64,000 nucleotides of DNA, taken from contig JAEUHS010000058.1 of the NCBI GenBank assembly GCA_016794035.1, positions 14,854 through 78,853 of the forward strand. Direction: 5' to 3'. Positions within the stretch are counted from its first letter, which is position 1; every line of letters begins with the position of its first letter. The translations under genes were made by a program, and so were the position numbers. The notes below the pieces were generated by a model. That model was not told the DNA's origin, made no database searches, and saw nothing but the letters and a program-made list of their open reading frames with translations. This DNA is from Planctomycetota bacterium (GTDB lineage: Bacteria; Planctomycetota; UBA1135; UBA2386). This document shows, in pieces, positions 1,795 to 56,090 of the stretch.

Positions 1795-3483
1795 ATGCAG
1801 AAGCTGCTGCTGTTCCTGTTCCTGCTGTTCCCCGTCGTGCTCGGTCGCGCGCAGAACGACGCGAGCGAAGTCGGCTTCACGCGCGAGTTCGGTGCCCCCG
1901 ACTCGACCGGCAGCTTCCGCGCCCGTTTCTCGAAGCAGGGCGCCGGCCTGGTCTGGCTGCAGACGATGGACCACTTCGTCTCGCTGGCGGCCTCGCGGCA
2001 CACGCCGCACGCGCCCGACGACTACCTGCTGCTGGCGAGCAACGGCAGCGACCATGCGCTGCGCCTGTTCCACGCCGCGGCGACCGCGTCGTTCCCGGTC
2101 GATCCGGCGACGGCGATGTGGAACGTCGAGTCGTTCGAGGGCGGCCTGCGCTTCACGCTCGATTCCACGACCGGCTTGGTGCTCGAGAAGACCATGCGCC
2201 ACGACCCGGCCGGCCGCGGCTTCGTGATCGAGTTCGCGCTGCGCAACCAGTCGTGCTCGGCGACGGAACCGCTCGATCTGCAGTTCACCGGCCCGGCGCT
2301 GGTCAGCCCGTCCGAGTCGTCGTTGTTCGGCAACCTGGCGGTCTCGATCGCCGCGCCGCTGCAGGGGGATGCCGTCACCGCGCCGCCGGCGGCCGGCAAG
2401 GTGCAGGCGCTCGCGCTCGATCCGCGCTCGCTGTCGTTCGCCGGCAGCACCAACCGTTTCTTCGGCGCCTTCCTGTGGCCGCGCGACGAGGCGGCGCGCG
2501 CGGCGTTGCAGCGCTTCGACGTCGACACCGTGCCGCCGCAGGCCGACGACTCGATCCACGTCGCGGCGAACAGCGCGACGCGGGTGCGCTACGGCCTGCA
2601 GCTCGCCGTGCCGCCGATCGGCGGCGAGACGCGCGTCGGCTACGGTCTCTACCTCGGGCCGAAGTCCTACCGCGTGTTCGCGACGCTGCCGACCGCAGCC
2701 GACCAGCAGCGCTTCGCGCCGATCCTCGACGTCGACCTGAATCCGCCGTGCTGCGGTGGCATCACGGTGCCCGGTGGCCGGCCGATGGCGAAGCTGCTGC
2801 TGGCGCTGCTCGGCTGGTTCCACGACGTCATCGGCAACTGGGGCATCGCGATCATCATGTTGACGATCCTGGTGCGCGGCCTGCTGGCACCGGTGAACTT
2901 CCACATGCAGAAGTCGATGCGGAAGTACGGCGCCAAGATGGCGGTGCTGAAGCCGAAGCTCGACGCGCTGAAGAAGCAGTACGGCGACGACCAGAAGGGC
3001 TACCAGCAGGCGATGGTCGCGTTCCAGCGCGAGCACAAGATGATCCCGCCGCTCGGCGGCTGCCTGCCGATCCTGCTGACGATGCCGATCTACATCGGTC
3101 TGTTCACCGCGCTGCGCACCGCCTACGACCTGCGCCACCAGCCGTTCGTGTCCTGGATCGACGACCTCAGCCGTTCCGATGCGCTGTTCGAACTCGGCTT
3201 CTGGCCGCATCACTTCAACCTGCTGCCGCTGGTCTGGATCGGCCTGTTCGTGACGATGTCGCTGCGCCAGCCGCTGCCGACCGACCCGCAGCAGCGGCAG
3301 ATGCAGTCGATGATGCGCTACATGCCGATCCTGTTCGGCCTGATGCTCTACGGCTACGCGTCGGCGCTGATGCTCTACATGGTCACCTCGATGGTCTGGT
3401 CGCTGATCGAGAGCTCGATCACGAAGAAGATCCTCGGCCCCATGGACCCCAACGTCGCCGCGATGGCGCCGACGCCGATGTGA
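1795..3483 (+). CDS. yidC: Membrane protein insertase YidC
   Basis: 562 aa. It has a hydrophobic N-terminus, a large periplasmic region, then the conserved core GNWGIAIIMLTILVRGLLAPV, KMAVLKPKLDALKKQYGDD and PLGGCLPILLTMPIYIGLF. Confidence 0.9.
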   Translation: MQKLLLFLFLLFPVVLGRAQNDASEVGFTREFGAPDSTGSFRARFSKQGAGLVWLQTMDHFVSLAASRHTPHAPDDYLLLASNGSDHALRLFHAAATASFPVDPATAMWNVESFEGGLRFTLDSTTGLVLEKTMRHDPAGRGFVIEFALRNQSCSATEPLDLQFTGPALVSPSESSLFGNLAVSIAAPLQGDAVTAPPAAGKVQALALDPRSLSFAGSTNRFFGAFLWPRDEAARAALQRFDVDTVPPQADDSIHVAANSATRVRYGLQLAVPPIGGETRVGYGLYLGPKSYRVFATLPTAADQQRFAPILDVDLNPPCCGGITVPGGRPMAKLLLALLGWFHDVIGNWGIAIIMLTILVRGLLAPVNFHMQKSMRKYGAKMAVLKPKLDALKKQYGDDQKGYQQAMVAFQREHKMIPPLGGCLPILLTMPIYIGLFTALRTAYDLRHQPFVSWIDDLSRSDALFELGFWPHHFNLLPLVWIGLFVTMSLRQPLPTDPQQRQMQSMMRYMPILFGLMLYGYASALMLYMVTSMVWSLIESSITKKILGPMDPNVAAMAPTPM

Positions 3484-3523
3484 GGCTCGCAGCGGGCGGC
3501 CGCGGGGACGCAGCCGTGGGTGC

Positions 3524-4552
3524 TCAGGCCGGCAGCACGAAGTCGAACTGCACCGTGCCGTCGCGCAGGCGCTGCACGGTGGCCTGGCCGCGGTGGCCGA
3601 GGAACACGGTCTGGGCGAGGAACAGGCCCAGGCCCAGCCCGGGGGCGCGCAGCGCGCGGCTCGGGTAGAACGGCTCGAAGCTGTGCGGCAGCTGCCAGGT
3701 CGCCAGTTCGTGGCCGCTGGCCTCGAGGCGCAGGCGGCGACCGGCGGGCAGGGCATCGAGTCGGACGCGGCACTGCGCGCCGAGCACGGCGAGGTCGTCG
3801 GCGAACTGCAGCAGGCCGAGCAGCGCGGCGCCCAGCTGCTCGGGATCGCCCGGGACCGTGTGGCCGCCCGCGGCGATGGTCAGCGTCGCGTGCTCGCGGT
3901 CGCTGCGGCGGGCGGCGACCGCGGCGCTGAGCAGCAGGGCGAGGTCGACCGGTTCGCGCCGCGCGGGGCCGTGCGCGGCTTCGGCGACCAGGCGCAGGCG
4001 ATCGACGCCGGCCTGGATGCGCTGCACGCCGGCGAGGGCGCTGTCGAGTTGCTCGCGATGCCCGGCGGCGTTCGGGTCGAGGCTGCCGCGCAGCAGCTGC
4101 AGATGGCCGGCGACGAACATCAACGGGTTGTTGATCTCGTCGGCGACCCCGCGCGCCAGGTCGTGGAACACCTCGGGCCGCGGCCGGTTGCCGCCGAGCC
4201 GCGCCTGCTCGAGCACGGCCGCGAGCTGGCCGGGGGCGTCGGGCACCAGCAGCTGCGCGCCGAGCCGGGCCGCCAGCGGTGCGTCCCGCAGCTCGTGGGC
4301 GGCGTCGGTCACCAGCACCACGCCCATCGCCGGCCACAGGTTTCTCAGGGCCCGCAGGGCGCCGACCTCCTCGGCGGGGTCGGGCCCGAACGCGATGCAC
4401 AGCACGTCGGCCTGGAACTGCACGACCGCCTCGCTGTCGTTGCACAACGACGACCAGCGGCGCACTTCGGGGTTCAGCGGCAGCGCGCGCAGGTCGGCGA
4501 GCAGGCGGTCCGTAGCGGGGCCGACGACGGCGATTCGGGCGGGCCGATCCAT
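3524..4552 (-). CDS. Histidine-kinase-like protein with an N-terminal receiver-like domain; H-box His replaced by Asp
   Basis: Track ORF 3524..4606; likely start is MDRPARIAVVG at 4552. The DHp region reads FHDLARGVADEINNPLMFVAGHLQLL, versus the canonical AHEINNPL. The C-terminal HATPase-like region reads FEPFY...GLGLGLFLAQ. The G1-box region reads EASGHEL rather than D-x-G-x-G. Confidence 0.6.
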   Translation of the reverse strand: MDRPARIAVVGPATDRLLADLRALPLNPEVRRWSSLCNDSEAVVQFQADVLCIAFGPDPAEEVGALRALRNLWPAMGVVLVTDAAHELRDAPLAARLGAQLLVPDAPGQLAAVLEQARLGGNRPRPEVFHDLARGVADEINNPLMFVAGHLQLLRGSLDPNAAGHREQLDSALAGVQRIQAGVDRLRLVAEAAHGPARREPVDLALLLSAAVAARRSDREHATLTIAAGGHTVPGDPEQLGAALLGLLQFADDLAVLGAQCRVRLDALPAGRRLRLEASGHELATWQLPHSFEPFYPSRALRAPGLGLGLFLAQTVFLGHRGQATVQRLRDGTVQFDFVLPA

Positions 4553-30319: not shown

Positions 30320-31903
30320 CTACCCCTCTTCTTCGGCCGGCGGCGACTCGAGCAGTTCGAGCCCCTTGTAGCGCGACTTGGCGTACTCGATCTCGAAGTC
30401 GGAGTGGAACAGCGCGACGAAGCGGCCGGCCTCGTCCTTGACGACCATCGGCAGCACCTCGAGCACCTCGTCGGTGACGTGGTCGACCCAGCGCGCGCGG
30501 GTCCAGGCCTTGCGGTCGAGGCGCAGCTGCACGCCGTACTCGTTCTCGAGCCGCCACTGGAACACCTCGAGCTGCAGTTCGCCGATCGCGCCCAGCACGG
30601 GTTCGCGGGCGCCGAAGCGCGGCCAGAAGATCTGTACGACGCCCTCCTCGCCGAGCTGTTCGAGCCCCTTGCCGAAGCCCTTCGACATCGACGGCTCGCG
30701 CGGCGCCACCTGCGCGAAGATCTCGGGTGCGAAGCGCGGGAAGTTGCGCACCTCGAAGCTCGGGCCCGAACTCAGCACGTCGCCGACGCGGAACATGCCC
30801 GGGTTGATCAGGCCGATCACGTCGCCGGGCCAGGCGTCTTCGATCGACACGCGCTCCTGGGCGAAGAAACGGTGCGGGTGCGACAGCCGCACTTCGCGCG
30901 ACAGCCGCAGGTGTCTGGCCGACATGCCGCGCTCGAAGTGGCCCGAACAGACGCGCAGGAACGCGATGCGGTCGCGGTGCATCTTGTCCATGTTGGCCGC
31001 GACCTTGTAGACGAAGCCGGAGAAGAACGGCGCGTTGGGCGGCACCTCGCCGTCCAGCGTCGGCAGCGGACCCGGCGGCGGCGCGATCTCGAGGAAGCGC
31101 TGCAGGATGTTCTCGACGCCGAAGTTGACCAGCGCGCTGCAGAAGAACATCGGCGAGATGCGCTGCTGCAGGAACGCCGACATCTCGAACGGCTGCACGC
31201 AGGTCTCGACCATCGCCAGATCCTCGAGCAGCTGCGCGTGCGCCCTCTCGCCGAGCGCCTGCCGCAGCTGCGGATCCGACGGTCCGGTGGTCTGCACGCT
31301 GGCTCGGGTCGCGTTGTGCGCGGTGCGCTCGAACAACGACACCTGCTGGTCGCGCAGCGAGTAGACGCCGCGGAAGTCGTCGCCGGAGCCGATCGGCCAG
31401 GTCGCCGGCACGATGGTGATGCCGAGCACCTTCTCGACCTCGTCCATCAGGTCGAGCGGCGCGCGCGCCGGCCGGTCCATCTTGTTGACGACGGTGACGA
31501 TCGGAATGCCGCGGTCGCGGCAGACCTTGAACAGCTTGATCGTCTGCGGCTCGACGCCCTTGGCGCCGTCGATCAGCATCAGCGCCGCGTCGGCGGCGAC
31601 CAGGGTGCGGTAGGTGTCCTCGCTGAAGTCCTGGTGGCCCGGCGTGTCGAGCAGGTTGATGCAGTGGCCCTGGTATTCGAACTGCAGCGCCGAACTGGTG
31701 ATCGAGATGCCGCGCTTCTTCTCCAGCTCCATCCAGTCCGAGGTCGCGTGCGCGCCGCCGCGGCGGGCCTTCACCGAGCCGGCCTCGCGGATGGCGCCGC
31801 CGTACAGCAGCAGCTTCTCGGTCAGCGTCGTCTTGCCGGCGTCCGGGTGCGAGATGATCGCGAACGTGCGCCGGCGCTGGATCTCGGTGTCGATGTCGGC
31901 CAT
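30320..31903 (-). CDS. prfC: Peptide chain release factor 3
   Basis: 527 aa. RRTFAIISHPDAGKTTLTEKLLLYGGAI, DTPGHQDF and NKMDR are the GTPase G1/G3/G4 motifs in the RF3-typical arrangement. Confidence 0.95.
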   Translation of the reverse strand: MADIDTEIQRRRTFAIISHPDAGKTTLTEKLLLYGGAIREAGSVKARRGGAHATSDWMELEKKRGISITSSALQFEYQGHCINLLDTPGHQDFSEDTYRTLVAADAALMLIDGAKGVEPQTIKLFKVCRDRGIPIVTVVNKMDRPARAPLDLMDEVEKVLGITIVPATWPIGSGDDFRGVYSLRDQQVSLFERTAHNATRASVQTTGPSDPQLRQALGERAHAQLLEDLAMVETCVQPFEMSAFLQQRISPMFFCSALVNFGVENILQRFLEIAPPPGPLPTLDGEVPPNAPFFSGFVYKVAANMDKMHRDRIAFLRVCSGHFERGMSARHLRLSREVRLSHPHRFFAQERVSIEDAWPGDVIGLINPGMFRVGDVLSSGPSFEVRNFPRFAPEIFAQVAPREPSMSKGFGKGLEQLGEEGVVQIFWPRFGAREPVLGAIGELQLEVFQWRLENEYGVQLRLDRKAWTRARWVDHVTDEVLEVLPMVVKDEAGRFVALFHSDFEIEYAKSRYKGLELLESPPAEEEG

Positions 31904-31960
31904 CGGGGGCGAAGAGAGTAGCGGTGCCCCCGGCGATTGCGAGGCTCGCGGCGCCAGCGC

Positions 31961-32824
31961 CTAGCGCGGTGCGGCACCGCCCGTCGGCGGCAGCAGACGG
32001 GACGCCCAGTCGCGCTGTTGGGGCGGGCCGCTGGCGGCGAGTTCGGCGAGCCAGCGCGCGCGGTGCGGGTGGTCGGGATGGTGGCAGACGAGGTGGGCCA
32101 GCATCGTGTCCCGGTGGTGGCGCCGGGTCGCCGGCTCGGGAACCGGGGCGTCCGTGGGCGCGGCCGTGCCGGCAGCCGGCGCGGTTTCGATGGCGGCGAG
32201 GAAGCCCGCATCGGCCGGTGCCCGGTCCTTGCCGGCAACCATCACCGGGATCTCGGGCAGCGTCAGGCCCAACACCTTCGGCTCGCACAAGCTCAGCTTG
32301 AGCTGCACCGTGCCGGCCGCATCGACGACGATCGCCGGGTTCGGCAGGTCGCCGAACATGGCCCGGCTCTGGTCGCCGAGGTCGTCGATCCAGACGTCGA
32401 CGTCGAGTCCGTATTCGGCGATCGTGCGGCGCGCGAGTGCCACCCGTTCCGCGTAGGTCGTTGGCTGTGGCACGTCACAGAACGCCAGCTGCCGCGCGTG
32501 GGGTTCGCGCTGGTAGACGACGACGAAGCGAACGTCGGTGCGATCGCGATACTGCGCGAGGAGATCCCGCAGACCTGCGGCGTTACGACGGAACGGCGGT
32601 CAAGTGTAGCTGCCGCCGATCAGCACGATGGTCCGGCCCCGTTCGAGCAGGAGGCTGCGCGGACGGCCGTCGAGGTCCCACAGGCAGAGGTCCGGAGCCG
32701 GCGTGCCGACCGCGGGCGCGGCCTGGGCGAACACCGTGCCCGAGTACTGGTCGATCCACCGCTTCTCCATCTGGGCCGGCAGGGCGGCGGTCAGCAGCAC
32801 GGCGACGAGGCATGTGATGCGCAT
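31961..32824 (-). CDS. Deiodinase-like thioredoxin-fold protein with an in-frame TGA (candidate selenocysteine) at 32600..32602
   Basis: Track ORFs 32600..33061 and 31961..32473 are in the same frame. I checked the frame codon by codon: the only stop is the TGA, and 42 open codons follow before the second ORF's nominal GTG. The joined product is MRITCLVAVLLTAALPAQ...RTIVLIGGSYT-[TGA]-PPFRRNAAGLRDLLAQYRDRTDVRFVVVYQREPHARQ... This matches the deiodinase active-site motif G-S-x-T-U/C-P-P-F and the following Y.D..V.F..VY..E.H block. A GGAG lies 11 nt before the ATG at 32824. Confidence 0.65.
32567..32580 (-). promoter_or_regulatory. Candidate bacterial SECIS apical hairpin
   Basis: The mRNA after the UGA reads CCGCCGUUCCGUCGUAACG-CCGCAGGUCUGCGG. 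This is a 5-6 bp stem with a GGUC apex. The 10-nt core GCAGGUCUGC begins 21 nt after the UGA and is identical, as I recall it, to the apex of the E. coli fdhF SECIS (GGUUGCAGGUCUGCACC), in the same codon phase. Confidence 0.5.
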
Positions 32825-32843
32825 CGTGGAACTCCGGTAGCGG

Positions 32844-33938
32844 TCAGGGACGAGCAGCGGGAACGGGGCCGACGGCGGGGTCCGTGTTCTGCCGCAGCAC
32901 GCGGAAGCCGACGTCGTCGGCGCGCACCTCGGGGCGCAGGCGCATGCGCATCGAGTTGCGGACGAAGATGCCGTCGAGCACGAACGATCCACCACGCAGG
33001 GCACGATACCCGTCTTCGCCCTCGCCTGCCGGATGCCGGCCGCCGTAGGCCGCGCGCACAAACACGTCGCCGGTCCACTCGAAGGCGTTGCCGGTCATGT
33101 CCAGCAGCCCGAAGCCGTTCGCGGGAAACCTGCCGGTGGGCAGCAGGTTGCCGCTCTCCTGGTTGGCGGCCGCCGTGCGGTAGGTGTCGCCGTACGCGTA
33201 GACCCGGGAGCCGGGGCCGCGCGCGGCCTTCTCCCATTCGGTCTCGGTCGGCAGCCGATGCACCACGCCGGTGCTCTGCGTGCGCCAGCGGCAGTAGGCG
33301 GCGGCGCCCTCCCAGCTCACCGTGACGACCGGCAGCTCCGGCGCGTTCGTCGTGAACCCGCCGTGCGCCGCGTCCCGATGGACCCGGCACTTGTGACCCG
33401 CCAGGTCGAGCCAGGCGTCCGCCACGGCGTCCGGCCGCAGCGCGTTCAGGAAGGCCGCGAACTGGGCGTTGGTGGTCTCGCGCTCGGCGAGCCAGAAGCC
33501 CGGCAGCGCCGGCGTCGACACCGGCCGTTCGTCTTCCTGGCCGATGCCGAGGTCGTCGCCGCGCAGCGTGATGCCCGGCGGGATCCAGCACCAGCCGGGT
33601 TCCGGCGCCGGCGCCGGCCACATGGTCAGCGACAGCGTCGCCGGTGGCGTGAAGCCGAGTTCGGCGACCGGCAGCGGCAGCGGCAGCGACGGCGCGCCGT
33701 CGCCGATGGCCACCGCGTAGCGCCCGGGCAGGAGGTCGAGCGTGATCGTCGCGCCGTCCCCGAGCCCGGTCTCGGCGCCCCAGCCGTCGCGCACCGCGCG
33801 GCACAGACGCAGGTTCGCGCCGGTGCGGTTGTCGAGCACGACCCGGCGCGGTTCGGGCGCGCCAGATGCGCGCGTGGCCGTGGCGAGGCAGTCGCAGGCG
33901 CCGGCCGACAGAACGGCCGCGAGGACGGCGGCGTGCAT
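32844..33938 (-). CDS. Secreted/lipoprotein formylglycine-generating-enzyme (FGE-sulfatase/SUMF1) domain protein
   Basis: The start is MHAAVLAAVLSAGAC. The C-terminal domain carries ERETTNAQFAAFL, VTVSWEGAAAYCRW, RLPTETEWEKAARG, GLLDMTGNAFEWT and LRGGSF, the FGE-sulfatase signature blocks. Confidence 0.75.
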   Translation of the reverse strand: MHAAVLAAVLSAGACDCLATATRASGAPEPRRVVLDNRTGANLRLCRAVRDGWGAETGLGDGATITLDLLPGRYAVAIGDGAPSLPLPLPVAELGFTPPATLSLTMWPAPAPEPGWCWIPPGITLRGDDLGIGQEDERPVSTPALPGFWLAERETTNAQFAAFLNALRPDAVADAWLDLAGHKCRVHRDAAHGGFTTNAPELPVVTVSWEGAAAYCRWRTQSTGVVHRLPTETEWEKAARGPGSRVYAYGDTYRTAAANQESGNLLPTGRFPANGFGLLDMTGNAFEWTGDVFVRAAYGGRHPAGEGEDGYRALRGGSFVLDGIFVRNSMRMRLRPEVRADDVGFRVLRQNTDPAVGPVPAARP

Positions 33939-33990
33939 GCGGCCGACCTCGCGCCGCGCCGCGGGCGACGCCGCGATCGTCGGGCGCGGG

Positions 33991-34872
33991 TCAGACCTTG
34001 TCCGGATCCTGGCCACGCAGCACCGAGTTGCCGTCGAACGTCTCGCGCAGATTGGCGCGCGCGGGCTGCGCCAGCATCGCCTCGTCGAGCCGCCCGCTCT
34101 GGGCGAAGAACGCGATCGGGTTGTGCCAGACCAGCTGGTCGATGCGGTCGCGCGCGACGCCGGCCTGCTCGAGCTTGACCACCGTGCGCGGCACCATCAT
34201 CGGATCGCTGACGCCCCAGTCGGCGGCGCTGTTGATCACCATGCGCTCGACGCCGTACTCGAGCACGATGCTGGTCATGCGCGCCGGGTCCATCTTGGTG
34301 TTCGGGTAGATCGAGAACCCCGACCAGCAGCCGAGGTCGCGCGTGATCTTGATGGTCTCCTCGTTGCCGTGGTCGAGCAGCACGCGCTCCATCGGGAAGT
34401 TGCAGTCCCGCACGATCGCGATGCAGCGCTCGAAGCCCTTCTTCTTGTCGCGGTGTGGCGTGTGCACCAGGGCCGGCAGCGAGTGCTTGCGCGCCAGTTC
34501 GAGCTGCGCGGCCATGAACGTCTCCTCGGCCTTGGTCTGGTCGTCGAGGCCGATCTCGCCGACGCCCAGGCACGAGTCCTTCTCGCAATAGCGCGGCAGG
34601 ATCGCCAGCACGTCCTTGTTGACGCGGTCGTCGTTCGCCTCGCGCGGGTTCAGCGCCATCGTGCAGAAGTGGTGGATGCCGAACTGCTGCGCGCGGTGGC
34701 GTTCCCAGCCGATCAGCGTCTCGAAGTAGTCGACGAAGCTGCCGACCGAGGTGCGCGGCTGGCCGAGCCAGAACGCCGGCTCGAGCACCGCGCGTACGCC
34801 GGCGAGGCTCAGCCGCTCGTAGTCGTCGGTGATGCGGCTGAACATGTGGATGTGCGGTTCGAAGATCGGCAT
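33991..34872 (-). CDS. TatD-family metal-dependent hydrolase (resembles the EboB type)
   Basis: 293 aa. MPIFEPHIHMFSRITDDYERL...EPAFWLGQPRT...GVGEIGLDDQT...LVHTPHRDKKKG...NSAADWGVSDP. The N-terminal HxH and the overall pattern match my recollection of the TatD hydrolases encoded in ebo operons. Confidence 0.7.
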   Translation of the reverse strand: MPIFEPHIHMFSRITDDYERLSLAGVRAVLEPAFWLGQPRTSVGSFVDYFETLIGWERHRAQQFGIHHFCTMALNPREANDDRVNKDVLAILPRYCEKDSCLGVGEIGLDDQTKAEETFMAAQLELARKHSLPALVHTPHRDKKKGFERCIAIVRDCNFPMERVLLDHGNEETIKITRDLGCWSGFSIYPNTKMDPARMTSIVLEYGVERMVINSAADWGVSDPMMVPRTVVKLEQAGVARDRIDQLVWHNPIAFFAQSGRLDEAMLAQPARANLRETFDGNSVLRGQDPDKV

Positions 34873-42258: not shown

Positions 42259-42990
42259 ATGGAATCCGTCAACGAAATCAAGGAAGCCCTCTCGGCTCGC
42301 TCCCGCACGGCGACTCTCGACGAGTTGCGCAGCGAAGGGCGGCGTCGGGTGCGCCTCGTTCGGGCCGAGCACATCGCCGCGATGATCAGCGAGGCGGTGC
42401 ACACCGCCATCGAGCAGTCGGGGCTGATCGGGCAGGACGAGGTCGACCGGCTGGTCGACAAGAGCCGTCAGGAGTTCCGTTCGATCCTGAAGGAGCGCGA
42501 GGCCGAGGTGCAGCGCGCGCACGAGATCGAGGAGACGCTGGCGGAACGTGAGACCGAACTCGCGGCGCTGAAGAGCCGCTGCGCCGAGCTGACGGCCGCA
42601 CTCGCGTCGAAGCAGCAGGCTCCGGCCGCCACCGGCGCGGCGGCGCCGTCGGGCGACCTGGTGATGTCGCTGATGCAGGAGATGGCCAACATGAAGGCCA
42701 GCCTGATGCAGCGCGACGCGCAGCCCGCGCCGGCCGCCGGCGCCGCCGACTTCTCGGCGGCGATCGAGAAGCTGGCCGGTTCGCTGAACGACCGGCTCGA
42801 GACGATCGGCAAGAAGATGGGCGTGAGCGCCGCGGTCGAGTCGAACACGCCCATGGACTTCAGCAGCCTGTTCGCCGACGACGGCAAGTCGCTCGAGTCG
42901 AACATGGAGAACATCGAGGTGAAGCAGAAGTCGGCCGGCGGCATCGCCGGCAACCTGGCTCGCCTGAAGAAGCTCAAGGGCGGCAGCTAG
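42259..42990 (+). CDS. Coiled-coil protein with a basic amphipathic C-terminus
   Basis: The ATG at 42259 follows GAGG. There are about 100 aa of heptad-like sequence (KEREAEVQRAHEIEETLAERETELAALKSRCAELTAAL). The C-terminus is KSAGGIAGNLARLKKLKGGS. I recognise no family. Confidence 0.55.
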   Translation: MESVNEIKEALSARSRTATLDELRSEGRRRVRLVRAEHIAAMISEAVHTAIEQSGLIGQDEVDRLVDKSRQEFRSILKEREAEVQRAHEIEETLAERETELAALKSRCAELTAALASKQQAPAATGAAAPSGDLVMSLMQEMANMKASLMQRDAQPAPAAGAADFSAAIEKLAGSLNDRLETIGKKMGVSAAVESNTPMDFSSLFADDGKSLESNMENIEVKQKSAGGIAGNLARLKKLKGGS

Positions 42991-43030
42991 GCCGTCCGGA
43001 CTGGCATTACGGGAAGCAAGGCGGAGAGCA

Positions 43031-44077
43031 ATGACGCAGCATCAGAACCACAACGATCCCAGTGTCGACCATGGCGCCGACACGGCCGTCGCCCTCGGCA
43101 AGGGCCTCGACGTCGGCACCGCGAATCTCGCGGCAGCCGTCCAGAACGACGAAGGCGGCATCACGGTGAACGTGGAGCGCAACGCGTTCCTCGACATCCC
43201 CAGTGACGTCTACAGCAAGAACATGCTGACGAAGCTGAAGGTGCCCTACGTGGTGCACAACAACAAGCTCGTCGTCATCGGCGAGGCCGCGTTCGAGCTG
43301 GCCAACGTGTTCGGGCGCGAGACGCGCCGGCCGATGGCGGACGGACTGATCAGCCCCAACGAGCAGGACGCGCTGCCGATGATGAAGATGATCATCGGCA
43401 AGATCCTCGGCGAGCCGCGGGTGCAGGGTGAGCACTGCTACTTCTGCGTGCCGGCCCCGTCGCTGGACGTCGACAACAACGTCGTCTACCACCAGGGTCT
43501 GTTCGAGGGGATGATCAACAAGATGGGCTACACCGCGCACGCCATCAACGAGGCGCACGCGGTCATCTTCGCCGAGCTGGCGGAGAGCGACTTCACCGGC
43601 ATCGGCCTGTCGTTCGGCGGTGGCATGGCCAACGCCTGCATCGCCTACAAGTCGATCCCGTGCCTGTCGTTCTCGGTCGCGCGCGGCGGCGACTGGATCG
43701 ACAAGAACGTCGCCAACGTGCTCGGCTGCCCGCGCAGCAAGGCGACGCACATCAAGGAGCGCGGCATCGACATCCGCGACCCGAAGAGCCGCGAGGAAGA
43801 GGCGGTGTCGATCTACTACCGCAGCCTGATCAACTACGTGCTGCAGAACATCAAGACGCGCTTCGAGTCCGGCAAGAACATGCCGAGCTTCAACAACCCG
43901 ATCGACATCGCCTGCGCCGGTGGCACGTCGATGATCGGCGGCTTCATCGAGGTCTTCCGCGACGAGTTCGCGAAGATCGACTTCCCGCTGCCGGTCGGCC
44001 GCATCTTCCGCAGCGAAGAGGCCCTGACCGCGGTGGCCAAGGGCTGCCTGGTGGCGGCCGCGATCGGCGAGAGCTGA
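43031..44077 (+). CDS. Divergent actin-like ATPase (ASKHA superfamily; MreB/MamK/ParM-like)
   Basis: 348 aa with GGAG 7 nt upstream. Phosphate-1 is GLDVGTANL. The MreB-like block is VVIGEAAFELANVFGRETRRPMADGLIS. Phosphate-2 is GIGLSFGGGMAN. The adenosine motif is IACAGGTSMIGGF. Confidence 0.65.
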   Translation: MTQHQNHNDPSVDHGADTAVALGKGLDVGTANLAAAVQNDEGGITVNVERNAFLDIPSDVYSKNMLTKLKVPYVVHNNKLVVIGEAAFELANVFGRETRRPMADGLISPNEQDALPMMKMIIGKILGEPRVQGEHCYFCVPAPSLDVDNNVVYHQGLFEGMINKMGYTAHAINEAHAVIFAELAESDFTGIGLSFGGGMANACIAYKSIPCLSFSVARGGDWIDKNVANVLGCPRSKATHIKERGIDIRDPKSREEEAVSIYYRSLINYVLQNIKTRFESGKNMPSFNNPIDIACAGGTSMIGGFIEVFRDEFAKIDFPLPVGRIFRSEEALTAVAKGCLVAAAIGES

Positions 44078-52225: not shown

Positions 52226-53026
52226 TCAGCCTTCCGCCCGGGCGAGCCGCACCATCTCGCGGAACACCACCATGCCGTCGCCGTCGAGCGGCAGCTGGCC
52301 GCGCTCGATCTGGGTGCGGCGCCAGTCGGGCATGTGCGTCGGCAGGTAGCTGCGATCGGGGTGCGGCATCACACCGAGCACGCGGCCGCTGCGATCGGTC
52401 AGGCCCGCCATGGCGAGCGGCGTGCCGTTCGGGTTCTGCGGGTAGCGTTCGGTCGGCTGACCCTGTGCGTCGACGTAGAGCGCCGCGGCGTAGCCCTCGT
52501 CGAGCAGCAGCCGCTGCAGCGCCGGATCGCGTGCGACCAGGCGGCCTTCGCCGTGCGCCGCCGGCCAGCGCAACGTCAAGCCGGCCGGCAGGAACAGGCA
52601 GCGCGACTTCGTCGTCTGCAGCGTGACCCAGCGACACTCGTAGTGGTTGCTGAGGTTGTGCGTCAGCGTCACTTCCTCCTCGAGCCTGCCCTGGGTGCAC
52701 GGCAGCAGGCCGAGCCGGACCAGCACCTGGAAGCCGTTGCAGATGCCGAGCACGAGCCCGCCGCGCTGGGTGAACTTCAGGATGCGTTCGCCGAGCGCGG
52801 CCTTGATCTCCTGCGCCAGCACGCGGCCCGAGCTGATGTCGTCGCCGTACGAGAAGCCGCCCGGTACGGCGAGGATCGCATACGCGTCGAGCCGTTCGGG
52901 CTGCGCCAGCAGCTGCTGGCTGTGCACGAACGAAGGTGCGCCGCCGGCACGCGCGAACGCGTGCAGCGTCTCGCGTTCGCAGTTGATGCCGGGCGCGCGC
53001 AGGATCAGGCACTTGGGCGCGCTCAT
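52226..53026 (-). CDS. purQ: Phosphoribosylformylglycinamidine synthase, glutamine amidotransferase subunit
   Basis: MSAPKCLILRAPGINCERE..., the nucleophile in GICNGFQVL, and MPHPDR. The ATGA overlaps the purL stop. Confidence 0.9.
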   Translation of the reverse strand: MSAPKCLILRAPGINCERETLHAFARAGGAPSFVHSQQLLAQPERLDAYAILAVPGGFSYGDDISSGRVLAQEIKAALGERILKFTQRGGLVLGICNGFQVLVRLGLLPCTQGRLEEEVTLTHNLSNHYECRWVTLQTTKSRCLFLPAGLTLRWPAAHGEGRLVARDPALQRLLLDEGYAAALYVDAQGQPTERYPQNPNGTPLAMAGLTDRSGRVLGVMPHPDRSYLPTHMPDWRRTQIERGQLPLDGDGMVVFREMVRLARAEG

Positions 53027-55917
53027 CGGGCCGCCTCCACGAGGGTGCCGTCGAGGTCGAGCGGCCGTTTCCATGCGCGTTCGACGGCGTCGAGCGGCAC
53101 CTTGGCGAGCCCCTTGCCGTCGTGGTGGAACACCAGCTCGGGCGCTCGGGTCAGCTCGCCGATGACCGCGAACGGCACCTGGTGCAGGTTCGCGCGCAGG
53201 TCGGCGAGGCGGTCGGGGGCGACTTCGAGCAGCAGCCGGCTCTGCGACTCGCTGAACAGGATCTGCTCGGGACGATGCACGCCCGGGCCGGTCGGGACCA
53301 GCGCCAGATCGACGCGCGCGCCGAGCCGGCCGCCGAGCGCCATCTCCGCGACCGCGACGCCGAGCCCGCCTTCGCTGAGGTCGTGCGCCGACAGCACGCA
53401 GCGCGCCGCGATCGCGCGGTGGCAGCCGATCAGCACGTCGCGGCCGAGCTGGTGGTCGACGCGCGGCACGTTCTGGCCGAGTTCGCCCTTGGTCTTGTAG
53501 TAGACGCTGCCGCCGAGTTCGTCCTTGGTGACGCCGACCAGCACCAGCAGCGAACCGGCGCGCTTGCCGTCGCTGGTCAGGGTCGCGCGCACGTCGCCGA
53601 TCACCGACATCGCGGTCACCAGGATGCAGCCGGGAATGCGGATCGTGCGGTCGGCGGCCCGGAACTCGTTGTGCAGCGAGTCCTTGCCGGACACGAACGG
53701 CGTCCGGTAGGTCATCGCCAGCGCGCACAGCGCCTCGGTCGCGCGCACCAGCTCGCCGAGCGCCTGCGGGTCGCGCGTGTTGCCCCAGCAGTAGTTGTCG
53801 AGGATCGCCGTGTAGTCCGGATCGCCGCCGGCGGCGACGAGGTTGCGCATCGCCTCGTCGAGCGAGCACTCGGCCATCGCCGCCGGATCGACCTTGCTGT
53901 AGCGCGGGTTGAGGCCGTTGCTGAGCACGACGCCGCGCAGCGAACCCAGCTTGGGCGCCAGCACCGCGGCGTCGGCAGGGCCGTCGGCGCGCACGCCGCA
54001 CAGCGGCTTGCCGGCCGAGCCGGCCTGCACCTCGTGGTCGTACTGGCGCACGATCCACTCCTTGCTGCACACCGCGTAGTCGGAGAGCACGGCCAGCAGC
54101 GCCTTGCCGCAGTCGGTCTCGGGCGGCAGCTTCGGCTCGCTGCGCGGGGGCGGCGCATAGCTCGCGTCCTGGGTGCGCACCGGCAGGCCCTGGTGCAGGA
54201 AGTGCAGATCGAGGTCGGCGTGCACCGTGCCGGCGAACGTCACCACCAGTCGCTGGCTGTCGGTGAAGTGGCCGAGCACGGTCGCCTCGCAGGCCTCCTC
54301 GCGGCAGACCTGCAGCAGCCGGTCGAGCTTCGCCGGCGGCACCGCCAGCACCATGCGTTCCTGGGCCTCGCTGATCCAGACCTCCCACGGCGCCAGTCCC
54401 TGGTACTTCAGCGGCGCGTGCTGCAGCTCGACGGCGGCGCCGAGGCCCTCGGCCATCTCGCCGATCGCCGAGCTGAAGCCGCCGGCGCCGCAGTCGGTGA
54501 TCGACGAGACCAGGTCCTCGTCGGCGCAGCGCAGCACCGCGTCCATCGCCCGGCGTTCGGTGATCGGGTCGCCGATCTGCACCGCGCCCGAACTGACCAT
54601 CTCGCTGTCGGTGTGCAGCGCGAGCGAGCTGAACGTCGCGCCGTGGATGCCGTCGCGGCCGGTGCGACCGCCGAGCGCGACGATCACGTCGCCGGGGTGC
54701 GCCTGCTTGTGCGCACGCGCGGTCGGCAACAGGCCGATGTTGCCGACGTAGACCAGCGGGTTGCCGACGAAGTCGTCGTCGAAGTGCACGCCGCCGTTGA
54801 CGGTCGGGATGCCCATCGGGTTGCCGTAGTCGCGCACGCCGGCGACCACGCCCTTGAGCACCGACAGCGGCGGCAGGCAGCCCGGTGGCACCCGGTCGGC
54901 GGGCAGGTCGGGCGGGGCGAAGCAGAACACGTCGGTGCTGGCGATCGGCCGCGCGCCGAGACCGGTGCCGAGCACGTCGCGGATCACGCCGCCGACGCCG
55001 GTGCCGGCGCCGCCGAACGGCTCGATCGCCGAGGGGCGGTTGTGGGTCTCGACCTTGATGCAGACCGAGTCCTCGTCGTCGAAGCGGATGATGCCGGCGT
55101 TGTCGACGAACACGCTGACGCAGAAGTCGCGGGCCAGCGTGTGCGTGACCCGGGCGATCGTGCTCTTCAGCAGGTTCTCGATCGTACGGCCCTCGAAACG
55201 CACGTTGCCGGTCAGGGTCTTGTGCTTGCAGTGTTCGCTCCAGGTCTGCGCCAGCGTCTCCAGCTCCATGCGCAACGGCGCGCGGCCGAGGCCGGCGAAG
55301 TGCCGCTGGATCGCCAGCATCTCGGCGCCGTCGAGCGCGAGCCCGCCGTCCTGTGACAGCCGTTCGAGGCCGGCACGGTCGAGTTGTGCCAGCGGCACCG
55401 GCAGAGCGCGCAGATCCGGCAGCGGCGGCTCACCGGGCAGGCCGGCGGGCAGCGCGTCGAGCAGGACCTCCTGCACCACGGCGTTGGCCAGCGCCTTCCT
55501 GGCCACCTGCAGCAGGCGCGCCGGATCGACGCGGCCGCGCACGTCGTAGACGCGGTAGGTGCCGGTGGCCACGACCGGCAGCCGCAGGTCGGCCAGCGAC
55601 TTCTGCACCGAGTGTGCCACCGGGTCGGTGACACCGGGGCGTGGCACCACGGCGACCGCATGCCGGCCGGCCGGCGGCGGCGGCGTCGCCCCGGGCGCAT
55701 GCAGCACGAACTCGTCGACGACCGGATCGCACAGCACCGCGGCGGCGAACGCGCGCACCTGCGCTTCGGTCAGCTCGGCCGCGAGCAGGTAGCCGCGCCG
55801 GCTGCGCACGTCCTCGACGCCGTCGAGTGCCGCCGCCCGCAGCGCGCGCAGCGCCGAAGCGCCCATGGGATCCTGCTGATCGGACCTCACGACGACATCG
55901 ATGCGCCACGCCTGCAT
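53023..55917 (-). CDS. purL: Phosphoribosylformylglycinamidine synthase subunit PurL with a fused N-terminal PurS-like domain
   Basis: The N-terminal roughly 80 aa (MQAWRIDVVVRSDQQDPMGASALRAL...LCDPVVDEF) is PurS-like. PurL blocks follow: ETLAQTWSEHCKHKT, ETHNRPSAIEPFGGAGTGVGGVIRD and GGRTGRDGIHGATFSS. An alternative GTG start lies at 55926. Confidence 0.9.
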   Translation of the reverse strand: MQAWRIDVVVRSDQQDPMGASALRALRAAALDGVEDVRSRRGYLLAAELTEAQVRAFAAAVLCDPVVDEFVLHAPGATPPPPAGRHAVAVVPRPGVTDPVAHSVQKSLADLRLPVVATGTYRVYDVRGRVDPARLLQVARKALANAVVQEVLLDALPAGLPGEPPLPDLRALPVPLAQLDRAGLERLSQDGGLALDGAEMLAIQRHFAGLGRAPLRMELETLAQTWSEHCKHKTLTGNVRFEGRTIENLLKSTIARVTHTLARDFCVSVFVDNAGIIRFDDEDSVCIKVETHNRPSAIEPFGGAGTGVGGVIRDVLGTGLGARPIASTDVFCFAPPDLPADRVPPGCLPPLSVLKGVVAGVRDYGNPMGIPTVNGGVHFDDDFVGNPLVYVGNIGLLPTARAHKQAHPGDVIVALGGRTGRDGIHGATFSSLALHTDSEMVSSGAVQIGDPITERRAMDAVLRCADEDLVSSITDCGAGGFSSAIGEMAEGLGAAVELQHAPLKYQGLAPWEVWISEAQERMVLAVPPAKLDRLLQVCREEACEATVLGHFTDSQRLVVTFAGTVHADLDLHFLHQGLPVRTQDASYAPPPRSEPKLPPETDCGKALLAVLSDYAVCSKEWIVRQYDHEVQAGSAGKPLCGVRADGPADAAVLAPKLGSLRGVVLSNGLNPRYSKVDPAAMAECSLDEAMRNLVAAGGDPDYTAILDNYCWGNTRDPQALGELVRATEALCALAMTYRTPFVSGKDSLHNEFRAADRTIRIPGCILVTAMSVIGDVRATLTSDGKRAGSLLVLVGVTKDELGGSVYYKTKGELGQNVPRVDHQLGRDVLIGCHRAIAARCVLSAHDLSEGGLGVAVAEMALGGRLGARVDLALVPTGPGVHRPEQILFSESQSRLLLEVAPDRLADLRANLHQVPFAVIGELTRAPELVFHHDGKGLAKVPLDAVERAWKRPLDLDGTLVEAAR

Positions 55918-56090
55918 GGGCGGCACGATGCCGGTCGGTCATCGGTGGTGCAAGCACGCGGCGCCGCGGAATGCGGCTCGCCGGACATCTGCGCTTTCCG
56001 CTGCGCGGCCCGCATCTGACCACCACACCGGCGCGTGCGCGCGGGTAGACTCCTGGGCCGCCACACCTGTCCCGCCGCCCGATCCGCACC

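What the first reader, a model, noticed from the sequence alone, without database searches (positions are those of the whole stretch)
31961..32824. In-frame TGA at the catalytic position of a deiodinase-like thioredoxin-fold gene: candidate selenoprotein
The ORF track shows two separate minus-strand ORFs (32600..33061 and 31961..32473). They share one reading frame and are interrupted only by the TGA at 32600-32602. I checked the 42 codons between that TGA and the second ORF's nominal GTG one by one, and none is a stop. The joined protein reads ...RTIVLIGGSYT[TGA]PPFRRNAAGLRDLLAQYRDRTDVRFVVVYQREPHARQ... In iodothyronine deiodinases the active site is G-S-x-T-U-P-P-F, with U being selenocysteine encoded by UGA, followed by a Y.D..F..VYI.EAHP block. 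The TGA here falls exactly on that residue. Neither half would be a complete fold alone, and the second half has no ribosome-binding site of its own. Gene callers will annotate this as two fragments or a pseudogene.
Basis: partly seen in the sequence, partly recalled or inferred. Interest (0 to 1): 0.85.

Follow-up and report, generated by a model that had tools for sequence, protein, structure and literature searches.

The report
Exported deiodinase-like selenoprotein gene, split by annotators
The in-frame TGA is almost certainly a selenocysteine codon in a secreted, deiodinase-like redox enzyme that gene callers split into two fragments; this kind of bacterial selenoprotein has been known since 2005, so this is a real but incremental find whose new feature is a conserved partner gene.

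Summary
One minus-strand reading frame runs from ATG 32824 to TAG 31961 and is interrupted only by TGA 32602-32600.

All 36 related loci in public genomes, mostly Planctomycetota MAGs, carry TGA at the same column (GSYT-TGA-PPFRR). It is never a Cys codon or another stop. Protein conservation is equal on both sides of the TGA (60% and 59%).

A 5-6 bp hairpin lies 18 nt downstream (32581-32566) with a GGUC loop. It is kept by compensatory changes and by rare synonymous codons. Its core is identical to the E. coli fdhF SECIS.

The TGA column aligns with the catalytic Sec of mouse deiodinase 3 and with Cys in distant bacterial homologues. An independent metagenome contig (99.5% identical) has the same TGA, and its gene caller split the gene into 74-aa and 160-aa pieces.

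The protein has a signal peptide and an uncharacterised helical C-terminal extension. In 30 of 32 Planctomycetota loci it follows an FGE-fold gene that lacks the FGE catalytic cysteines, often with an ATGA overlap.

The window contains no selA, selB, selD or tRNA-Sec, and the rest of the genome could not be searched. Verdict: a real, unannotated member of the known prokaryotic deiodinase-like selenoprotein family. Its substrate is unknown.

The parts
32844..34016 (-). Upstream partner gene: exported FGE-sulfatase-fold protein. The likely true start is ATG 33938 (MHAAVLAAVLSAGAC...). It lacks the FGE catalytic Cys pair.
   Evidence: Pfam FGE-sulfatase E=6.9e-48. Alignment to human FGE puts LDG where the Cys pair sits. 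The gene is directly upstream on the same strand in 30/32 Planctomycetota loci. Its stop overlaps the Dio-like start (ATGA) in 14/30 loci. Start region read.
32832..32835 (-). Shine-Dalgarno-like GGAG, 7 nt before the ATG
   Evidence: Read directly from the sequence.
32603..32824 (-). N-terminal coding half (74 codons). It holds the signal peptide (about 32824-32774), the conserved QMEKR motif, the first strands of the thioredoxin fold, and ends in GGSYT.
   Evidence: Translation. Signal peptide plus QMEKR is present in WIN and L001-L032. Mean identity to 32 relatives is 60%. JGI calls it as a separate 74-aa gene.
32600..32602 (-). TGA read as selenocysteine (residue 75)
   Evidence: TGA sits in this column in 37/37 sequences. 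It aligns with Dio3 Sec170/Cys and with Cys in distant homologues.
32566..32581 (-). SECIS-type hairpin GCCGCA-GGUC-UGCGGG. The loop is 32575-32572 and the stem starts 18 nt after the TGA.
   Evidence: Sequence read. 89.7% of cells are paired, 4 of 6 pairs show compensatory changes, and 0/500 shuffles reach the covariation score. RNAalifold finds the same helix. Rare codons GCA and GGT are kept in 24/34 sequences. The core GCAGGTCTGC is identical to the E. coli fdhF SECIS.
32255..32599 (-). Rest of the thioredoxin/deiodinase fold (residues 76-190), including the YQREPHA block (E107 at 32506-32504, H109 at 32500-32498)
   Evidence: Alignment to 4TR3. E107 and H109 are at least 97% conserved, and the codons were checked. 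In the AF2 model the helix starts directly after U.
31964..32254 (-). C-terminal helical extension (residues 191-287; HHR..MLAHL..P.H..R..WL.ELA..GP..QR.WA). No known family matches it.
   Evidence: Conserved motif in alignment A1. The model shows four confident helices. No Pfam hit and no structural match.
31961..31963 (-). True stop codon TAG

Best explanation
32824-31961(-) is one gene for a 287-residue selenoprotein.

Shown: UGA 32602-32600 sits at the catalytic position of a deiodinase-type thioredoxin fold, at the N-cap of helix alpha1 in the motif G-S-Y-T-U-P-P-F. A conserved hairpin with a G-containing 4-nt loop follows it.

Inferred: SelB carrying Sec-tRNA(Sec) binds that hairpin and inserts selenocysteine, as in E. 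coli fdhF. The protein is exported through the Sec pathway by a signal peptide present in every Planctomycetota-clade member. It works outside the cytoplasm together with the FGE-fold protein encoded immediately upstream.

Inferred mechanism: the selenolate attacks an electrophilic atom of the substrate, either a peroxide oxygen or a halogen. The conserved Glu107/His109 (equivalent to Dio3 Glu200/His202) and Ser72/Thr74 deliver the proton. The resulting selenenic or selenenyl species is then reduced by an external donor, because no second Cys is conserved. Relatives fused to a CxxC thioredoxin-like domain or to a multihaem cytochrome c point to thiol or haem electron donors.

My estimates: genuine Sec codon 0.9. 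Sec-based extracytoplasmic oxidoreductase, given that, 0.85. Specific reaction: peroxide reduction about 0.3, reductive dehalogenation about 0.2, redox step on a substrate bound by the FGE-fold partner about 0.3, other 0.2.
For: - Single frame with one TGA.
- 36/36 related loci have TGA in the same column, never TGY, TAA or TAG.
- Conservation is equal upstream and downstream of the TGA: 60% and 59%.
- Hairpin covariation: 4/6 pairs compensatory, 0/500 shuffles, and the slid controls are far lower. RNAalifold finds the same helix.
- Rare codons are retained: GCA is 4% of Ala codons and GGT is 9.6% of Gly codons in this window, yet each is used in 24/34 homologues. TTA (0.1% of Leu) appears exactly where it restores a base pair.
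- The hairpin core is identical to the verified E. coli fdhF SECIS.
- U aligns with the Dio3 catalytic residue.
- Cys forms GSYTCPPF exist in distant homologues.
- A profile of this clade recovers PF00837 proteins: 58 of 61 long hits.
- TGA is the ordinary stop of 20 of the 24 window ORFs whose stop I read, so the code is not reassigned.
- An independent contig has the same TGA.
- Signal peptides in all members.
- Operon partner in 30/32 loci, with ATGA overlap in 14/30.
- Fusions to Thioredoxin_7 and to multihaem cytochrome c.
- Some Planctomycetes have complete selA/selB/selD sets (PMC4807772).
Against: - No selA, selB, selD or tRNA-Sec in the 64 kb window or in the flanks of the 36 loci. 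The rest of the genome could not be searched.
- The hairpin alone is not thermodynamically unusual in this 72% GC context: z = -1.6 for 21 nt and +1.2 for 45 nt.
- No Rfam family matches.
- Part of the nucleotide conservation could come from the conserved peptide NAAGLR.
- The Pfam deiodinase score is 0.4 bit below the curated cut-off.
- The window copy has Leu at a Trp that is at least 85% conserved (residue 179), so this allele may be impaired.
- The outgroups L034 and L036 show no comparable hairpin.
- There is no biochemical evidence for any substrate.
Confidence: 0.88

Rival explanations
1. Pseudogene or sequencing/assembly error: the TGA is a recent nonsense mutation or a miscalled TGC/TGT.
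For: Gene callers treat it as two fragments. The window copy also has an odd Trp179Leu change.
Against: The TGA is in the same column in 36/36 loci from different MAGs and phyla. An independent contig has the same TGA. Both halves are equally conserved. The downstream hairpin shows compensatory changes.
Confidence: 0.01
2. The TGA is a genuine stop. The locus encodes a 74-residue exported peptide plus a separately initiated C-terminal protein, that is, a split thioredoxin fold assembled from two chains.
For: Annotators call two ORFs. No Sec machinery was seen in the window.
Against: No start codon is conserved after the TGA: called starts vary from M at 'MKEY' to 'MRFVV' to 'MAF'. There is no RBS before the GTG. 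The C-terminal piece would lack a signal peptide, while the N-terminal piece has one. The 42 codons between the TGA and the GTG are among the best conserved, PPFRRNAAGLR. Cys homologues are single chains.
Confidence: 0.03
3. The UGA is decoded without selenium, by near-cognate or suppressor read-through (Trp, Cys or Gly) or by a lineage-wide reassignment of UGA.
For: The UGA-C context is known to be a leaky terminator (general knowledge). The Sec machinery is unverified.
Against: TGA is the normal stop of 20 of the 24 window ORFs whose stop I read, and of most homologues' own genes. This rival does not explain a conserved hairpin with a G-containing loop at a fixed distance. The position is the catalytic Cys/Sec of the fold, where Trp or Gly would be inactive.
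Confidence: 0.04

Closest known systems
Prokaryotic 'deiodinase-like protein' selenoprotein family (Zhang, Fomenko & Gladyshev 2005, Sargasso Sea; PF00837; listed in the 2022 and 2026 reviews)
   Same: A bacterial thioredoxin-fold protein related to iodothyronine deiodinases. It has Sec at the catalytic position, a bacterial SECIS directly downstream, Cys-containing homologues, and a proposed redox function.
   Different: The reviews list the family motif as UxxC, whereas this clade has U-P-P-F with no second Cys. This clade also scores at or just below the PF00837 cut-off. It carries a signal peptide with a QMEKR motif, an unmatched helical C-terminal extension, and a conserved FGE-fold operon partner. 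I found none of these features described in the searched literature.
Mouse type 3 iodothyronine deiodinase catalytic domain (PDB 4TR3/4TR4)
   Same: Best solved relative (E=1.1e-5). GSxT-U/C-PPF aligns residue for residue. The YxxE.H block and the PQ...ER segment after it are shared.
   Different: The match is local, covering residues 39-165 at low overall identity. The animal enzymes are membrane-anchored and act on thyroid hormones, which are not expected in bacteria. Here there is a cleavable signal peptide and a different C-terminus. Dio3's second Cys next to Sec (GSCTU) is Tyr here.
E. coli fdhF SECIS element
   Same: A hairpin immediately 3' of the UGA inside the coding sequence, with a 4-nt GGUC loop. 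The 10-nt core GCAGGUCUGC is identical.
   Different: The loop begins 6 nt (two codons) further from the UGA: position 28 against position 22. The stem is shorter, and the bulged U of the fdhF element (from my own knowledge of that element) has no counterpart here. Binding by SelB is untested.
Peroxiredoxin / TlpA-ResA-type thiol:disulfide oxidoreductases
   Same: Same thioredoxin fold with the catalytic residue at the start of helix alpha1. These are the best structural matches of the model and give weak Pfam AhpC-TSA and Redoxin hits. Many TlpA/ResA proteins are also extracytoplasmic.
   Different: The scores are below the family cut-offs (18.7 against 26, and 13.8 against 26.6). There is no CxxC and no resolving Cys. 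The deiodinase-type insertion is present.
NCBIfam NF038285 'deiodinase family protein'
   Same: Shares the catalytic domain (E=1.4e-21, profile positions 173-323).
   Different: It scores 77 bits against a cut-off of 250, and the 170-residue N-terminal part of that family is absent.

Membership tests
Bacterial (SelB/SECIS-dependent) selenoprotein gene | In-frame UGA with protein-level conservation on both sides | tested here: met
   One TGA in the frame. 37/37 sequences have TGA in that column. Mean identity is 60% upstream and 59% downstream.
Bacterial (SelB/SECIS-dependent) selenoprotein gene | UGA column occupied by Cys in homologues | tested here: met
   P0045 has GSYTCPPFRRE and P0046 has GSYTCPKLR. 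24 of 32 spanning representative hits have Cys there. The Dio3 crystal construct also has Cys.
Bacterial (SelB/SECIS-dependent) selenoprotein gene | Stem-loop directly downstream of the UGA, with a small apical loop containing G | tested here: met
   Hairpin at 32581-32566 with loop GGUC. G28 is at least 90% conserved. Covariation beats 500/500 shuffles. RNAalifold finds the same helix. The feature is as described in PMC1088965. The single-sequence energy is not significant.
Bacterial (SelB/SECIS-dependent) selenoprotein gene | selA, selB, selD and tRNA-Sec present in the same genome | not testable with these tools
   None in the window or in the flanks of related loci. The rest of the genome is not available. 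Some Planctomycetes have the full set (PMC4807772).
Bacterial (SelB/SECIS-dependent) selenoprotein gene | Selenium actually incorporated | not testable with these tools
   Needs 75Se labelling or mass spectrometry.
Iodothyronine deiodinase family (Pfam PF00837) | Score at or above Pfam's gathering cut-off (27 bits) | tested here: inconclusive
   The window protein scores 26.6 bits, E=4.4e-6. Clade members L021 (28.8) and L033 (35.7) pass. A profile of the clade retrieves proteins of which 58/61 hit PF00837, best 4e-45.
Iodothyronine deiodinase family (Pfam PF00837) | Catalytic motif G-S-x-T-U/C-P-P-F, and the Y-x-x-E-x-H block of the deiodinase insertion | tested here: met
   Residue-by-residue alignment with 4TR3. 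T74, U75, P76, P77, E107 and H109 are at least 97% conserved in 33 sequences.
Iodothyronine deiodinase family (Pfam PF00837) | Reductive deiodination of iodothyronines | not testable with these tools
   Enzymology is required. The 2005 paper considered it unlikely for bacteria.
NCBIfam NF038285 deiodinase_rel | Score at or above the curated cut-off (250 bits) over the full 347-position profile | tested here: not met
   77.4 bits, covering only profile positions 173-323.
Peroxiredoxin (AhpC-TSA / Redoxin) | Pfam cut-offs and a peroxidatic Cys in the PxxxTxxC motif | tested here: not met
   18.7 against 26 bits, and 13.8 against 26.6 bits. The motif here is T-U, not TxxC.
Formylglycine-generating enzyme (for the upstream partner gene) | The two catalytic, copper-binding cysteines of the C-terminal motif | tested here: not met
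   Alignment to human FGE puts V-L-D-G-I-F and a gap where MCHRSYCYRYR lies. L-D-G is conserved across the 31 partner proteins. The fold itself is present (Pfam E=6.9e-48).

The most novel reading that the evidence does not exclude
The FGE-fold protein and the Sec-containing deiodinase-like protein may form a dedicated two-protein extracytoplasmic system. They are translationally coupled in many Planctomycetota. In this reading the FGE-fold subunit binds a substrate, and the selenoenzyme performs deiodinase-type chemistry on it: reductive dehalogenation, or reduction of an oxidised or modified group. Electrons would come from periplasmic thiol or haem donors. That would give the first physiological context and a testable substrate route for bacterial deiodinase homologues, whose function has been open since 2005.
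Probability: 0.15. Interest if true: 0.7.

Novelty: new member of a known kind. Interest (0 to 1): 0.4.

Why it matters
It corrects a systematic annotation error. All 44 close homologues in a 5.8-billion-protein database are stored as C-terminal fragments named 'hypothetical protein' or left unnamed. The same locus in a JGI metagenome is split into 74-aa and 160-aa genes.

It shows that one Planctomycetota clade uses Sec at this site without exception (32 of 32 loci).

It also gives bacterial deiodinase-like selenoproteins a first set of functional handles:
- export through a signal peptide;
- a conserved, often translationally coupled FGE-fold partner;
- an unknown helical domain;
- natural fusions to thioredoxin-like and multihaem cytochrome domains.

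The kind of selenoprotein itself is not new.

Tried and rejected
- Rfam found nothing for a SECIS, either at gathering thresholds over the whole window or at E<=10 over 32480-32680. The only hits were two chance matches on the opposite strand.
- Single-sequence folding of the region is no better than shuffles, so the SECIS argument rests on comparison between sequences.
- tRNA-Sec was not found in the window or in the 36 loci.
- A Pfam scan of about 56 window ORFs found no selA, selB or selD. The only AIRS-domain protein (53026-55938) is PurL, not SelD.
Only the C-terminal ORF was modelled.
- Foldseek against the PDB gave only weak thioredoxin-fold hits and nothing for the helical extension. 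Pfam also gave nothing for the extension.
- A search for a second SECIS-like site in the window found none.
- Other same-frame adjacent ORF pairs (RadC/sigma-70, TerC/NFACT/NDK, Lgt/Big_5/QueC) are separate genes, not further selenoproteins.
- I considered that the upstream gene is a true formylglycine-generating enzyme and rejected it, because the catalytic cysteines are absent.
- Literature searches for this clade, or for any link between deiodinase-like proteins and FGE, found nothing.

Full report
**Observation.** The minus strand between 33061 and 31961 contains the two listed ORFs, 32600..33061 and 31961..32473, in one frame. Translating across them gives a single internal stop within ...RTIVLIGGSYT*PPFRRNAAGLRDLLAQYRDRTDVRFVVVYQREPHARQ.... 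The stop is TGA at 32602-32600. The 42 codons down to the nominal GTG at 32473 are all sense codons. The upstream ORF's nominal TTG start lies inside the neighbouring gene in another frame. The real start is ATG 32824, which has GGAG 7 nt upstream and lies 19 nt after the neighbour's stop. The joined product is 287 residues long.

**The TGA is neither chance nor error.**
- A scan of one genome per species found 36 related loci. Thirty-two are of the same type as the window, nearly all labelled Planctomycetota MAGs. The four outgroups are one Armatimonadota MAG and three uncultured bacteria.
- In all 36, the frame continues through a TGA in exactly the same column: G-S-Y-T-TGA-P-P-F-R-R. It is never TGC or TGT, and never TAA or TAG.
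- The window protein's mean identity to its 32 close relatives is 60% for mature residues 19-74 upstream of the TGA and 59% for residues 76-190 downstream. Both halves are therefore under the same protein-level constraint.
- An independently assembled JGI metagenome contig (3300009870, Ga0131092_10003797) is 99.5% identical to the window and has the same TGA and the same downstream sequence. Its gene caller produced a 74-residue gene and a 160-residue gene.
- All 44 close hits in the large protein database start downstream of the TGA, for example MRFVVVYQREPHARQ... and MKEYDGRDD... Those that carry a name are called 'hypothetical protein'.
- TGA is the ordinary stop of 20 of the 24 window ORFs whose stop I read, so the genetic code is not reassigned.

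**SECIS.** Eighteen nucleotides after the TGA lies the hairpin GCCGCA-GGUC-UGCGGG (32581-32566).
- In an ungapped alignment of 34 sequences, 89.7% of the cells pair and four of the six pairs show changes on both sides. Examples are C-G to U-A in L005 and L018-L020, G-C to U-A at the closing pair, and a fully different CCUCCA/UGGAGG stem in the Armatimonadota sequence.
- No shuffle out of 500 reaches the observed covariation score or percentage paired. Sliding the 3' partner drops pairing to 20-54%. RNAalifold predicts the same helix on its own.
- The first loop position is G in at least 90% of sequences. A small apical loop containing G is the feature described for bacterial SECIS elements in PMC1088965.
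- Synonymous sites argue for a constraint at the RNA level. GCA makes up 4% of Ala codons and GGT makes up 9.6% of Gly codons in this window's genes, yet 24 of 34 homologues use GCA and 24 use GGT in the hairpin. TTA (0.1% of Leu codons) appears in L018 and L019 exactly where it restores a pair.
- The 10-nt core GCAGGUCUGC is identical to the apical hairpin of the E. coli fdhF SECIS. I verified that sequence against 5,419 E. coli genomes. Here the loop begins 6 nt further from the UGA.
- Caveats: the hairpin is not thermodynamically exceptional in a 72% GC sequence. Rfam has no matching model. The outgroups L034 and L036 show no comparable hairpin.

**What the protein is.**
- Pfam gives T4_deiodinase at E=4.4e-6 and 26.6 bits, which is 0.4 bit below the cut-off. 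AhpC-TSA and Redoxin hits are weaker.
- The best solved relative is the catalytic domain of mouse deiodinase 3 (4TR3, E=1.1e-5). GSYT-U-PPF aligns with GSCT-C(Sec170)-PPF. YQREPH aligns with YIEEAH, so Glu107 and His109 correspond to Dio3 Glu200 and His202 (numbering from my knowledge of that structure). VPQP..AERVALAR aligns with IPQH..EDRVSAAR.
- T74, U75, P76, P77, E107 and H109 are conserved in at least 97% of 33 sequences.
- A profile of the clade, searched against 1.84 billion representative proteins, finds 3,999 clusters at E<=1e-3. Among the best 143, many are truncated Sec-type calls. Thirty-two span the site, and 24 of those have Cys there (GSYTCPPF or GSYTCPKF) while a few have Ser. 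Of the 61 long ones, 58 hit PF00837 (best 4e-45), and many are fused to TPR or LTXXQ domains. The window's clade is therefore a divergent, obligately Sec-containing branch of the bacterial deiodinase-like family.
- NCBIfam NF038285 'deiodinase family protein' is related but clearly a different subfamily: 77 bits against a cut-off of 250.
- An AlphaFold model of the C-terminal ORF has mean pLDDT 86.6. It begins with a helix directly after the Sec position, which places U at the N-cap of helix alpha1, the catalytic position of thioredoxin folds. It also shows four confident helices in the C-terminal extension. Foldseek finds only TlpA/ResA/DsbE-type thioredoxin folds, weakly, and nothing for the extension. 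Pfam finds nothing for the extension either.
- Neither half is a complete fold.

**Context.**
- The window protein and all 32 close relatives start with a signal peptide followed by a conserved QMEKR motif, so the protein is exported.
- Directly upstream on the same strand is a gene for an FGE-sulfatase-fold protein (Pfam E=6.9e-48) with its own signal-peptide-like N-terminus.
- This neighbour is present in 30 of the 32 Planctomycetota-type loci, including those where the other flanking genes (TatD, prfC) differ. In 14 of 30 loci its stop overlaps the selenoprotein's start as ATGA. This is a conserved two-gene operon.
- The partner is not a formylglycine-generating enzyme. Aligned to human FGE, it has a conserved L-D-G where the two catalytic cysteines should be.
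- Natural fusions in relatives attach other domains to the selenoprotein. These are a Thioredoxin_7/CxxC domain (P0019, P0024, P0027), an SGNH hydrolase (P0006, P0022, L007, L008), and, in the Armatimonadota outgroup, a multihaem cytochrome c with a C-terminal membrane helix.
- No Cys other than the Sec position is conserved.

**Mechanism.** What is shown: a Sec codon at the catalytic position of a deiodinase-type fold, a SECIS-type hairpin, export signals, and a conserved partner. The rest is inferred:
1. SelB-dependent insertion of Sec.
2. Nucleophilic attack of the selenolate on an electrophilic O or halogen.
3. Proton delivery by the conserved Glu/His and Ser/Thr residues.
4. Regeneration by an external thiol or haem donor, as the thioredoxin and cytochrome fusions suggest.

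The substrate is unknown. Peroxide reduction, reductive dehalogenation, and a redox step on something bound by the FGE-fold partner are all open.

**What could not be tested.** The window has no tRNA, and none of the ORFs I scanned is SelA, SelB or SelD. The only AIRS protein is PurL. The flanks of the 36 loci have no tRNA-Sec. The literature shows that some Planctomycetes have complete Sec machinery (PMC4807772), so the phylum is compatible.

**Known or new.** 'Deiodinase-like protein' was reported as a bacterial selenoprotein family with Sec and Cys forms and bacterial SECIS elements in 2005 (PMC1088965). It is listed in the 2022 and 2026 reviews with the motif UxxC. No function has been established. 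I found no description of this clade, of its FGE-fold partner, or of its C-terminal domain. The finding is therefore a real, unannotated new member of a known kind. Its subfamily-level features deserve follow-up, but the basic phenomenon would not surprise a specialist.

Noticed in passing
window 42968-44074 (+): An ORF with a very strong Pfam Volactin hit (PF25216, E=4.2e-80, full profile length). As far as I know, volactin was described as an archaeal actin homologue, so a clear bacterial copy in a Planctomycetota-like genome is worth a look.
   Followed up: no
window 32290-32288 (-), residue 179 of the selenoprotein: The window has Leu (TTG) in KLS-L-CEP. The 99.5%-identical JGI contig has Trp (TGG), as do at least 85% of the relatives. 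This is either a real, possibly damaging polymorphism or a base error in the window's assembly.
   Followed up: partly
L002 (JBGARS010000070.1) compared with window 30320-34872: The flanking TatD and prfC products are 99% and 97% identical to the window's. The FGE-fold/selenoprotein pair between them is only 69% and 65% identical. The module either evolves much faster than its surroundings or has been exchanged.
   Followed up: no
window 30320-31903 (-): prfC (release factor 3) lies 57 nt downstream of the selenoprotein gene on the same strand. The same arrangement occurs in 10 related loci. It may be plain synteny, but a termination factor gene next to a UGA-recoding gene is a curious neighbour.
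   Followed up: no
L033 (Armatimonadota MAG JAUWAU010000009.1), about 2920-4150: An outgroup homologue with the same in-frame TGA is fused to a multihaem cytochrome c with six CxxCH motifs and a C-terminal membrane helix. This is a selenoprotein-cytochrome fusion.
   Followed up: partly
L014 (JBERSB010000042.1, labelled Luminiphilus sp.): This MAG is labelled as a gammaproteobacterium, but its locus has TatD and prfC 86-87% identical to the Planctomycetota-type window, plus the same two-gene module. The contig is probably mis-binned.
   Followed up: no
L034 and L036 (uncultured bacteria, low GC): Both have the in-frame TGA in G-A-C-T-TGA-P-P-Y-L, but no hairpin comparable to the Planctomycetota SECIS at the same distance. 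Their recoding signal, if any, is unexplained.
   Followed up: partly
window 53026-55938 (-): A 971-residue ORF combines a PurS-like N-terminus, the FGAR-AT linker and two AIRS/AIRS_C pairs (PurL), with no glutaminase domain detected. This looks like a PurS-PurL fusion.
   Followed up: no
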